From a virus, in IMG/VR virus record IMGVR_UViG_3300032242_000550, positions 32,001-96,000 of that record: a stretch of DNA of 64,000 nt; one strand, written 5' to 3'. Below, piece after piece: positions 53,705 to 54,753 of the stretch. The first letter of the stretch is position 1, and the number at the start of each line of letters is the position of its first letter. The translations under genes and the position numbers were made by a program. Below the pieces are notes generated by a model. The model saw only the letters and a program-made list of their open reading frames with translations, did no database searches and was not told where the DNA came from.

Positions 53705-53935
53705 TTAGAAGAATGGCATTCCAGATTTCTTAGTTGTATCTAAGTTTTCTTCTATTAGTTTACCAATATCATTACGTTCATTAGAGGACATGTTTAATAA
53801 ATCGGTATAGGAAACACCACCACGCATATACCAAGCATAACGTATGGCTGATGTTTTTATAGCCTTAGCCTCTGATTCTAAATCATCTATCAGCTTCTTT
53901 ATATCTTCAGAGTTAAGATGTAGAAGCTTTAACCG
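53705..53935 (-). CDS. gp51-like ORF lacking its own start; probably reached by -1 frameshift from the gp26-like gene
   Basis: Open 76-codon frame RLKLLHLNSEDIKKLIDDLESEAKAIKTSAIRYAWYMRGGVSYTDLLNMSSNERNDIGKLIEENLDTTKKSGMPFF*; slippery site at 53935-53941. Confidence 0.75.
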   Translation of the reverse strand, partial: RLKLLHLNSEDIKKLIDDLESEAKAIKTSAIRYAWYMRGGVSYTDLLNMSSNERNDIGKLIEENLDTTKKSGMPFF

Positions 53936-54753
53936 AAAAAATCAGATACGTTAAGAGTTAGTTTTTGTTGGTATTCGTGTGAGCAATGGATGCATTTTAC
54001 ATCCAAAGGCTTTAATTGAGAAGATTCACGTAATTTAACTGCAGTGGTTCGCAGTTGTTCAAATATTTTACGGTCACAGTTTTTTAGAAAATCTAAGATA
54101 TATTCTTTTTCATTAACTATGGCTGTTGGTGTTGTTATAGATTCAATAGTTTCAGCTATAAGTTCCATACTTAAATTATTTAACTTTTGCATAACTAGAC
54201 TAGATTCATTTTGTCTGATAACTTCATCAGTTATATTATCTAAATTTCTAATAGATTGTTCAATTTCAAATTGAGACATGTTTATATTGTTTATTTTTTT
54301 ATATGAAAATGGATTAAACTTGAATGTAAGCTCATTTACAGTAATTAATTCGTCATAGTTCCCTGCACTTAGGCTATTCAATAGTCCTATTAAATTTATA
54401 CCATAAGAAGCTTCTTCATTACAGCTAGGGCATTGTGATTCAATATCTAATGTTGTCCCATTGCTAGCGGCTCTAATAGCAACTAGTATAGGATCCAAAT
54501 CTACAATGGGTATAGACCATGGATCTTTAATATTTGGAATACAGCTTTTGATAATATCCACTACAGCAGTACCATTAAACAATGCATCTGGTGTTTTGCT
54601 AGTTATTTCATCAATGGCCGTCATTGGATAAACCGGCAATTCACGATTTTCAGGTAAATCTATGGATCCCTCTGGATAAAATTTACCACCACTGGGTAGT
54701 TTTAGATAAATTTCAGGACGGCGAAAATATTGTTTTAATGGGTTGTTGTTCAT
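53929..54753 (-). CDS. Baseplate hub assembly protein / tail assembly chaperone, T4 gp26-like
   Basis: LPS.G..P.T..DE..I.SC..D.D..L.AIR..S; CPSC and CIHC; ends DFFG. Confidence 0.8.
   Translation of the reverse strand: MNNNPLKQYFRRPEIYLKLPSGGKFYPEGSIDLPENRELPVYPMTAIDEITSKTPDALFNGTAVVDIIKSCIPNIKDPWSIPIVDLDPILVAIRAASNGTTLDIESQCPSCNEEASYGINLIGLLNSLSAGNYDELITVNELTFKFNPFSYKKINNINMSQFEIEQSIRNLDNITDEVIRQNESSLVMQKLNNLSMELIAETIESITTPTAIVNEKEYILDFLKNCDRKIFEQLRTTAVKLRESSQLKPLDVKCIHCSHEYQQKLTLNVSDFFG

What the first reader, a model, noticed from the sequence alone, without database searches (positions are those of the whole stretch)
53705..53945. Probable programmed -1 frameshift fusing gp26-like and gp51-like ORFs (lambda G/GT-style chaperone pair in a T4-like phage)
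Seen on the minus strand: the gp26-like gene ends GAT TTT TTC GGT TAA, containing the heptamer T TTT TTC (X XXY YYZ, 53941-53935). Six nt downstream is a hairpin, AGCTTCT..ATCTT/AAGAT..AGAAGCT (53928-53892). The -1 frame stays open for 76 codons (...AWYMRGGVSY..L.MS..ER..I.KLIEEN...PFF) with no ATG/GTG/TTG in its first ~36 codons, so the ORF track missed it. The predicted fusion is ~349 aa versus 274 aa. Established: tail assembly chaperones next to tape measure genes use -1 frameshifts (lambda G/GT). Inference: gp26/gp51-type proteins here are the G/GT equivalents, and the adjacent divergent gene is tape-measure-like.
Basis: partly seen in the sequence, partly recalled or inferred. Interest (0 to 1): 0.82.

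Follow-up and report, generated by a model that had tools for sequence, protein, structure and literature searches.

The report
Frameshift in jumbo-phage tail-chaperone gene
One tail-assembly gene of this uncultured giant T4-related phage very probably makes a short (274 aa) and a long (349 aa) protein, because some ribosomes slip back one base on a strictly conserved TTTTTTC; phage T4 makes the same pair from genes 26 and 51, a link published in 2022, so this is a solid new example and not a new principle.

Summary
The gp26-like gene (53929-54753, minus strand, Pfam PF12322) ends in an in-frame T_TTT_TTC. A hairpin follows after 6 nt, and a 76-codon -1 frame follows with no start codon in its first 36 codons.

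- **Conservation:** 100 of 102 related loci keep exactly this heptamer, and 8 cultured phages were read directly. The other two loci are one phage with the two parts fused in frame and a separate short gene beside it.
- **Coding signal:** the extension evolves as protein in the -1 frame only.
- **Link to T4:** T4 gp51 is itself PF12322 plus a C-terminal tail that aligns with the extension. T4 has two PF12322 genes; every frameshift phage checked has one.

That the neighbouring 977-aa gene is the tape measure remains only weakly indicated.

The principle is already published (Vladimirov, Gautam & Davidson 2022, known to me only through two citing papers). This scan has also noted the same signal more than 100 times in other genomes.

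Verdict: real, well supported, a new member of a known kind; low to moderate interest.

The parts
53929..54753 (-). Short form (TAC-N, gp26-like), 274 aa. It has two split CxxC pairs (C108/C111, C254/C257). An AGGAG Shine-Dalgarno lies 5 nt before the ATG (54763-54759).
   Evidence: Pfam PF12322 T4_baseplate: 68.4 bits against a cut-off of 24.5, E 9.5e-19. phrog_150 baseplate hub.
53935..53941 (-). Slippery heptamer T_TTT_TTC in X_XXY_YYZ phase (codons GAT TTT TTC).
   Evidence: It is invariant in 47 distinct aligned junctions and in 100 loci / 76 distinct sequences.
53929..53934 (-). 6-nt spacer GGT TAA, which includes the 0-frame stop codon (53931-53929).
   Evidence: In most loci the 0-frame stop lies one codon after the heptamer.
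53892..53928 (-). Stem-loop: outer stem AGCTTCT/AGAAGCT and inner stem ATCTT/AAGAT. Probable frameshift stimulator.
   Evidence: MFE -10.0 kcal/mol in the window. Across 47 junctions the mean z-score is -2.24, and most hairpins start 5-7 nt after the heptamer with compensatory arm changes. 68% of cells are paired, against 64% in shuffled and 54% in slid controls.
53705..53935 (-). -1 frame extension of 76 codons plus TAA (the C-terminal part of the long form, TAC-NC, gp51-tail-like). It has no start codon before codon 37.
   Evidence: 73 distinct 76-codon homologues were compared. 37% of codon differences are synonymous in this frame, against 5-8% in the other two frames, which are closed in all 73. 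hhalign to the gp51 tail gives E 8.3e-5.
54814..57747 (+). Divergent neighbour, 977 aa. Possible tape measure with a PVPPT repeat and a C-terminal VanY/M15 peptidase domain. The assignment is tentative.
   Evidence: VanY domain at aa 789-855. Homologues are annotated as virion structural proteins in 121Q, PA5oct and BF. Protein-atlas feature score of 0.89 to tape-measure clusters. A sub-threshold TMP_3 hit falls on the homologue in G001. No similarity to the T4 gp29 family.

Best explanation
The gene is the single tail/hub assembly chaperone gene of a giant T4-related phage, and it encodes two proteins.

- **Short form.** Most ribosomes read GAT TTT TTC GGT and stop. This gives the 274-aa short form, the counterpart of T4 gp26 (TAC-N).
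- **Long form.** A minority slip. With tRNA-Phe in both the P and A sites on UUU UUC, and paused by the hairpin 6 nt downstream, they move back one base to UUU UUU. They continue with CGG and add 76 residues, giving a 349-aa long form. This is the counterpart of T4 gp51 (TAC-NC).

Shown here: the signals, their conservation, the coding nature of the -1 frame, the homology to gp26/gp51, and that related phages carry either one gene with the signal or two separate genes.

Inferred, not shown: that the long product is made, its proportion, that the slip is ribosomal, and that the two forms chaperone the tape measure during hub and tube assembly, as lambda G/GT do.
For: 1. **Heptamer conservation.** In-frame T_TTT_TTC is present in 100 of 102 loci with a readable junction, down to about 30% protein identity. 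TTTTTTCG is invariant while mean column identity is 68%.
2. **Cultured phages.** The same signal occurs in Atu_ph07, Phosso, Munch, PA5oct, 121Q, Serratia BF, Rhizobium LG08 and Cronobacter LPCS28.
3. **No start codon.** Similarity of the extension starts at its first residue, an invariant Arg. Codon 2 is ATA, TTA, GTA or CTA in 51 of 64 loci.
4. **Coding signature.** It is seen only in the -1 frame.
5. **Hairpin.** It sits at a fixed distance, with compensatory changes such as AGCTTCT/AGAAGCT, GACTCTTAA/TTAAGAGTC and GGCTCTTGA/TCGAGGGCC. The mean z-score is -2.24.
6. **Natural fusions.** In-frame fusions of 336-355 aa exist. In one clade the DNA reads GAA TAT TTT CGG, with no slippery site, and a separate 272-aa short gene follows in tandem.
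7. **Copy number.** PF12322 genes number 2 in T4, 2 in the fusion phage and 1 in each of 8 frameshift phages.
8. **Link to gp51.** T4 gp51 is PF12322 plus a tail, and the tail aligns with the extension.
9. **Structure.** The natural long form folds with high confidence as one unit (pLDDT 94, pTM 0.88).
10. **Literature.** gp26 and gp51 are hub assembly chaperones, and gp51 is absent from particles (PMC3004832). Poly-T slippery sites in the TAC-N genes of T4-like phages, and the two-gene alternative, are attributed to Vladimirov et al. 2022.
Against: - There is no experimental evidence for the long product in this or any relative that I could find.
- None of the GenBank records inspected annotates a joined CDS.
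- In the window alone the hairpin is modest (z = -1.42). In the most distant relatives (Munch, L062) no convincing hairpin is predicted.
- RNAalifold on the fixed-register alignment returned no consensus structure.
- In 7 of 64 loci, including Atu_ph07 and Phosso, codon 2 of the extension is ATG or GTG; in Atu_ph07 and Phosso the ATG overlaps the stop as ATGA. Coupled re-initiation is therefore possible there.
- The model matches no solved structure, including no solved tail assembly chaperone.
Confidence: 0.85

Rival explanations
1. The two products are real, but the shift happens in transcription. RNA polymerase stutters on the T6 run and adds one U to some mRNAs, which ribosomes then read normally into the long form.
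For: A homopolymer run is the one invariant element. The resulting protein would be identical to the frameshift product. The title of Vladimirov et al. [quoted passage not shown]
Against: The run is only six T long in all 100 loci and never longer. From general knowledge, efficient bacterial transcriptional slippage needs runs of about 8-9. The run is always in X_XXY_YYZ phase and is followed at 5-7 nt by a hairpin with compensatory changes, which is the geometry of ribosomal -1 frameshifting. PRFect's summary of the 2022 paper says the other mechanism is two separate genes.
Confidence: 0.07
2. The extension is a separate small gene. It would be translated by re-initiation or coupling at the end of the gp26-like gene, giving a free protein of about 8 kDa and no fusion.
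For: Several GenBank records annotate a small ORF there. In Atu_ph07 and Phosso an ATG overlaps the stop as ATGA.
Against: In the window the first possible start is codon 37, after the most conserved N-terminal motif R-x-[RK]-L-L. Codon 2 is a non-start codon in most loci. The invariant Arg is residue 1, directly after the heptamer. Synonymous conservation of NNT TTT TTC has no role in coupling. In-frame fusions and T4 gp51 show that the tail works as part of the long protein.
Confidence: 0.04
3. There is no recoding. The TTT TTC codons are kept only because Phe-Phe ends the domain, and the open -1 frame is a relic or reflects the neighbouring RNA structure.
For: T4 gp26 also ends ...EFFELL, so Phe-Phe is a protein feature. 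A structured RNA has been noted just downstream.
Against: T4, which has separate genes, uses TTC TTT. The frameshift loci all use NNT TTT TTC, against an expectation of about 0.125 per locus. The -1 frame is exactly 76 codons long in 73 distinct sequences and shows protein-type substitution.
Confidence: 0.02

Closest known systems
Phage T4 gp26 (208 aa) and gp51 (249 aa), baseplate hub assembly chaperones (Pfam PF12322; Leiman et al. 2010, PMC3004832)
   Same: They share the PF12322 domain. They form a short/long pair in which the long form is the domain plus a C-terminal tail. The tail carries the motifs F-[KR]-L-L..P-[DE]-E-[IV] and Y..[DS]-I..M...E-R.
   Different: T4 uses two divergent genes, and its gene 26 has no slippery site (TTC TTT). 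Here a single gene does both jobs. The extension is also longer: 76 aa against 48 aa in gp51.
[quoted passage not shown]
   Same: According to two citing papers, TAC-N genes of T4-like phages carry poly-T slippery sequences (PMC12846349). Some T4-like phages instead carry a short gene plus a long fusion gene (PMC10885494). I see both arrangements here.
   Different: I could not read the paper, so I do not know whether it covers these jumbo phages (121Q/RaK2-like, PA5oct, Atu_ph07 and their uncultured lake relatives), the hairpin, or the tandem long-plus-short clade.
Lambda gpG/gpGT and the conserved -1 frameshift of tail assembly chaperone genes (Xu, Hendrix & Duda 2004)
   Same: [quoted passage not shown]
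   Different: There is no sequence or detectable fold similarity to solved structures. The gene is about twice as long and has a split zinc ribbon. It lies divergent from, not upstream of, the putative tape measure. The heptamer is T_TTT_TTC, not G_GGA_AAG.
Phage T7 gene 10A/10B -1 frameshift on G_GUU_UUC (from general knowledge; mentioned in PMC12846349)
   Same: tRNA-Phe slips on a U-rich UUU/UUC site in a phage structural-module gene.
   Different: It occurs in a capsid protein, not a chaperone, and the heptamer and stimulators differ.

Membership tests
Pfam PF12322 T4_baseplate (T4 gp26/gp51 hub assembly chaperones) | Match to the family HMM above its gathering score | tested here: met
   68.4 bits against a cut-off of 24.5, E 9.5e-19, residues 46-273. 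T4 gp26 and gp51 both match the full profile.
Pfam PF12322 T4_baseplate (T4 gp26/gp51 hub assembly chaperones) | Long form is the domain plus a gp51-type C-terminal tail | tested here: met
   hhalign of the extension profile against the gp51 family: E 8.3e-5, probability 61%, tail to tail. The full-length alignment is collinear: E 4.3e-5, probability 69%. The support is moderate, not decisive. The Cronobacter LPCS28 extension is a visible intermediate.
Pfam PF12322 T4_baseplate (T4 gp26/gp51 hub assembly chaperones) | A short and a long form are both encoded in each genome | tested here: met
   T4 has 2 genes. The fusion phage G001 has 2 genes, one long and one short. Eight frameshift phages have 1 gene each.
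Tail assembly chaperones with programmed -1 frameshift (lambda G/GT type; T4-like TAC-N/TAC-NC) | [quoted passage not shown] | tested here: met
   T_TTT_TTC at 53941-53935, conserved in 100 of 102 loci.
Tail assembly chaperones with programmed -1 frameshift (lambda G/GT type; T4-like TAC-N/TAC-NC) | -1 ORF without its own start, conserved as protein | tested here: met
Tail assembly chaperones with programmed -1 frameshift (lambda G/GT type; T4-like TAC-N/TAC-NC) | Downstream stimulatory RNA structure at 5-9 nt | tested here: met
   The hairpin starts 6 nt after the heptamer. Most of the 47 junctions fold alike with compensatory arms (mean z -2.24). Fixed-register pair counts are modest, and RNAalifold found no consensus structure.
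Tail assembly chaperones with programmed -1 frameshift (lambda G/GT type; T4-like TAC-N/TAC-NC) | Gene lies next to the tape measure gene | tested here: inconclusive
   The gene is adjacent to, but divergent from, a 977-aa gene whose tape-measure identity rests on weak hints and is not supported by comparison with T4 gp29. In Rhizobium phage LG08 the order is tube, chaperone, 121-aa gene, large gene, all on one strand.
Tail assembly chaperones with programmed -1 frameshift (lambda G/GT type; T4-like TAC-N/TAC-NC) | Fold like solved tail assembly chaperones | tested here: inconclusive
   The confident model of the long form found no Foldseek match at E <= 0.001. VIA-align returned only generic helical-hairpin matches at Z <= 8.4.
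Tail assembly chaperones with programmed -1 frameshift (lambda G/GT type; T4-like TAC-N/TAC-NC) | Long product is actually made, at a low fixed ratio, and both forms are absent from virions | not testable with these tools
   This needs protein analysis. The only hint is that the PA5oct record marks the neighbouring gene, but not this one, as detected by ESI-MS/MS.

The most novel reading that the evidence does not exclude
The one-gene frameshift is the ancestral state of the whole gp26/gp51 chaperone family. It has been resolved into separate short and long genes at least twice independently: as the divergent genes 26 and 51 in T4 and its close kin, and as a tandem long-plus-short pair (42% identical) in one clade of uncultured jumbo phages. 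This would be a natural demonstration that a recoding signal and a gene duplication are interchangeable ways to set a two-protein ratio.
Probability: 0.5. Interest if true: 0.4.

Novelty: new member of a known kind. Interest (0 to 1): 0.3.

Why it matters
- **Fills a historical gap.** It confirms that the near-universal short/long tail-chaperone pair of long-tailed phages also exists in the giant T4-related phages. It also explains why T4 has two related 'hub assembly' genes.
- **Annotation.** GenBank records of Atu_ph07, Phosso, Munch, 121Q, Serratia BF and PA5oct annotate either a truncated small ORF or nothing where the long form's C-terminal part is encoded. These could be corrected to a joined CDS.
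- **Experimental handle.** Cultured E. coli phages such as 121Q and PBECO4 carry the same signal, so frameshift efficiency and the roles of the two forms are directly testable.

It does not add a new principle.

Tried and rejected
- **Tools and papers not available.** I obtained the DNA of the in-frame fusions with the search for related loci instead. Neither Xu et al. 2004 nor Vladimirov et al. 2022 is held, so the prior art is known only through citing papers.
- **Literature searches.** Searches combining gp26, baseplate hub, jumbo phage names and frameshift found no direct report.
- **Family and structure searches on the extension.** It has no Pfam match. Its only PHROG match is a weak one to phrog_18291, probably the truncated small ORFs annotated in relatives. 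A profile search of solved structures found nothing significant.
- **Single-sequence gp51 comparison.** hhalign of the extension against the single T4 gp51 sequence picked a spurious N-terminal stretch (probability 7%). The family profile was needed to find the tail.
- **RNA structure.** RNAalifold gave no consensus structure on the fixed alignment, because the hairpin register shifts between clades.
- **Fold searches.** Foldseek and VIA-align searches with the long-form model gave no informative match.
- **Tape-measure tests of the 977-aa neighbour.** BLASTP and profile-profile comparison with T4 gp29 found nothing. PF25671 found nothing in any relative. PF10145 gave only stray sub-threshold hits elsewhere.
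- **Terminator.** The terminator scan did not call the hairpin that follows the extension's stop.
- **Not run.** Complex prediction was not used, because a chaperone with an extended tape measure is a poor case for it.

Full report
**What is there.** On the minus strand an ORF of 274 codons (54753..53929) has an AGGAG 5 nt before its ATG. It ends GAT TTT TTC GGT TAA.

It is a member of Pfam PF12322 T4_baseplate (68.4 bits against a cut-off of 24.5) and of phrog_150 'baseplate hub'. It carries two split CxxC pairs (C108/C111, C254/C257).

The heptamer T_TTT_TTC lies at 53941-53935 in X_XXY_YYZ phase. After the 6-nt spacer GGTTAA comes a two-part hairpin at 53928-53892. From C53935 the -1 frame is open for 76 codons, to the TAA at 53707-53705. 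Its first ATG/GTG/TTG is codon 37. A slip would give 273 + 76 = 349 aa.

**Context.** The window comes from a 155-kb IMG/VR virus record that CheckV estimates at 45% complete, so this is a jumbo phage.

The neighbours are a divergent 977-aa gene, then the T4-type portal (gp20), and on the other side a resolvase-like nuclease and gp46/Rad50. The nearest cultured relatives of the short protein, at 30-33% identity, are Atu_ph07, Phosso, PA5oct, the 121Q/PBECO4/Munch group and Serratia BF.

**Conservation of the signal.**
- tblastn with the 76-aa extension hits directly behind the gp26-like gene of Atu_ph07 (E 3e-11), Phosso and the Munch group. The hits are in the -1 frame and start at extension residue 1.
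- Their junctions read CAT TTT TTC GCA TGA, CAT TTT TTC GAA TGA and AAT TTT TTC GGA....
- PA5oct, 121Q and Serratia BF have the same in-frame heptamer, with -1 frames of 71-73 codons.
- So do two smaller T4-related phages, Rhizobium LG08 and Cronobacter LPCS28 (Straboviridae).
- In IMG/VR, all 62 loci found with the short protein have the heptamer in phase. All have a 76-codon -1 frame, apart from two cut by contig ends.
- A second set of 43 loci adds 38 more with the heptamer, 3 cut before the junction, and 2 from one phage with an in-frame fusion.
- In an alignment of 47 distinct junctions, TTTTTTCG is invariant while mean column identity is 68%.
- Elsewhere in these genes Phe is TTT 591 times and TTC 378 times, and NNY codons end in T 62% of the time. 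NNT TTT TTC is therefore expected in about one locus in eight. For 23 lineages under 60% identity the joint probability is about 1e-21.

**The -1 frame encodes protein and has no start of its own.**
- Among 73 distinct 76-codon extensions, majority-base conservation is 0.70, 0.82 and 0.52 at codon positions 1, 2 and 3.
- 37% of codon differences are synonymous in this frame, against 8% and 5% in the other two frames. Those two frames contain stops in all 73.
- Invariant residues include R1, W35, R38, G39, R54, P74 and F76.
- Codon 2 is ATA (24), TTA (10), GTA (9), CTA (8), ATG (6), CTG (3) and others. A start codon there is therefore the exception.

**The hairpin.**
- Folding the 50 nt after each of the 47 junctions gives a mean z-score of -2.24 against dinucleotide shuffles, with 30 of 47 below -1.5.
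- Most junctions have a hairpin that opens 5-7 nt after the heptamer and closes at the same place.
- Arm sequences change in a compensatory way: AGCTTCT/AGAAGCT here, AGACTT/AAGTCT, GACTCTTAA/TTAAGAGTC and GGCTCTTGA/TCGAGGGCC elsewhere.
- In a fixed register the support is modest. 68% of cells are paired, against 64% when shuffled and 54% when slid, with covariation at four pairs of the outer helix.
- RNAalifold returned no consensus structure.
- In the most distant relatives the hairpin is weak or different.

**Fusions, copy number and the link to T4.**
- A profile of the extension finds natural single-ORF proteins of 336-355 aa that are PF12322 plus the extension.
- For one of them (P0007, on a 260-kb contig) the DNA at the junction is GAA TAT TTT CGG GTT. 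It has no slippery site, and it is not a simple homopolymer error.
- Directly behind that gene lies a second PF12322 gene of 272 aa. It stops just before the Phe-Phe position and has no extension. It is 42% identical to its neighbour and 45% identical to the window's short form.
- T4 gene 26 ends GAG TTC TTT GAG TTA CTA TAA, which is not slippery, and gene 25 follows it.
- T4 gp51, encoded divergently next to gene 26, is itself PF12322 over residues 1-201 (E 3.9e-52) plus a 48-aa tail.
- A six-frame search with PF12322 finds 2 genes in T4 and 2 in the fusion phage. It finds exactly 1 in each of LG08, LPCS28, 121Q, PA5oct, Atu_ph07, Phosso, Munch and BF.
- The extension profile aligns with the gp51 family tail: E 8.3e-5, probability 61%.
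- The long-form profile aligns collinearly with gp51 through the domain, the junction motif (R-x-[RK]-L-L..P-E-x-I against F-K-L-L-L-N-P-D-E-I) and the tail: E 4.3e-5, probability 69%.
- The LPCS28 extension is a visible intermediate.

The short product therefore corresponds to gp26 and the frameshift product to gp51.

**Structure.** AlphaFold2 on the natural long form, with a 66-row alignment, gives pLDDT 94 and pTM 0.88. The extension forms helices that continue from the domain. Neither Foldseek nor VIA-align finds an informative match in the PDB. Similarity to solved tail assembly chaperones could therefore not be shown or excluded.

**The neighbour.** The 977-aa protein has a PVPPT repeat and a VanY/M15 peptidase domain near its C-terminus. 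Its homologues range from 690 to 1053 aa. They are annotated as virion structural proteins in 121Q, PA5oct and BF.
- The language-model atlas places it at 0.89 near tape-measure clusters, which is a lead only.
- The only TMP_3 hit in the 260-kb relative falls on its homologue but is sub-threshold at 15.8 bits.
- Comparison with T4 gp29 by BLASTP and by profiles finds nothing, and PF25671 is absent from all relatives.

The tape-measure reading is plausible but not established.

**Prior knowledge.**
- Leiman et al. 2010 list gp26 and gp51 as hub assembly chaperones and state that gp51 is not in the particle (PMC3004832).
- The PRFect paper summarises Vladimirov, Gautam & Davidson 2022. [quoted passage not shown]
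- A 2025 paper cites the same work for poly-T slippery sequences in the TAC-N genes of T4-like phages (PMC12846349).
- I could not read the 2022 paper itself.
- This scan has noted the same signal more than 100 times in at least 94 other genomes. One earlier follow-up also pointed to the 2022 paper.

**Verdict.** This is a real and very well supported programmed -1 frameshift site in the single gp26/gp51-type chaperone gene of an uncultured jumbo phage.

The mechanism is most likely ribosomal slippage of two tRNA-Phe on U_UUU_UUC, stimulated by the hairpin. Transcriptional slippage on the T6 run is the main rival, and sequence alone cannot exclude it.

The principle is already published for T4-like phages. 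What this analysis adds:
- the extent of the signal across jumbo phages;
- the hairpin with compensatory changes;
- a second, independent two-gene resolution;
- the complementary copy numbers;
- the observation that public annotations of the cultured relatives miss it.

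Noticed in passing
window 17963-35785 (-): A single ORF of 5940 codons, followed by further ORFs of 1134, 1099 and 809 codons on the same strand. These are presumably tail-fibre or baseplate giants.
   Followed up: no
window 54814-57747 (+): The 977-aa neighbour carries five tandem PVPPT units at aa 721-746, just before a VanY/M15 peptidase domain at aa 789-855. 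This would be a wall-cutting domain on a putative tape measure.
   Followed up: partly
L068 4001-5923 (IMG/VR contig of 260 kb): One clade of uncultured jumbo phages has replaced the frameshift with tandem genes: a 350-aa in-frame long form and a 272-aa short form, 42% identical to each other.
   Followed up: yes
L001, L002, L003, L111, L112, L113 (Atu_ph07, Phosso, Munch, PA5oct, 121Q, Serratia BF): The public records annotate only a truncated small ORF, or nothing, where the extension lies. None has a joined CDS. phrog_18291 appears to be that fragment.
   Followed up: partly
L114 938-3672 (Rhizobium phage LG08): A 150-kb T4-related phage shows the classical gene order on one strand: tail tube, chaperone with frameshift, a 121-aa gene, then a gene of more than 640 codons.
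   Followed up: no
window 53668-53699 (-): Directly after the extension's stop lies CCCGTA, a 16-nt loop, TACGGG and TTTT. This resembles a terminator, but the scan did not call it because of the long loop.
   Followed up: partly
window 53201-53660: Earlier notes of this scan describe a conserved structured RNA of about 355-450 nt here, ending about 45 nt from the extension's stop. Its relation to the chaperone transcript was not examined.
   Followed up: no
gp51 homologues P0013-P0104: The precomputed annotation gives gp51 homologues a second family, PF28602, which is not in the local Pfam copy. It is not listed for the jumbo-phage long forms P0004-P0007.
   Followed up: no
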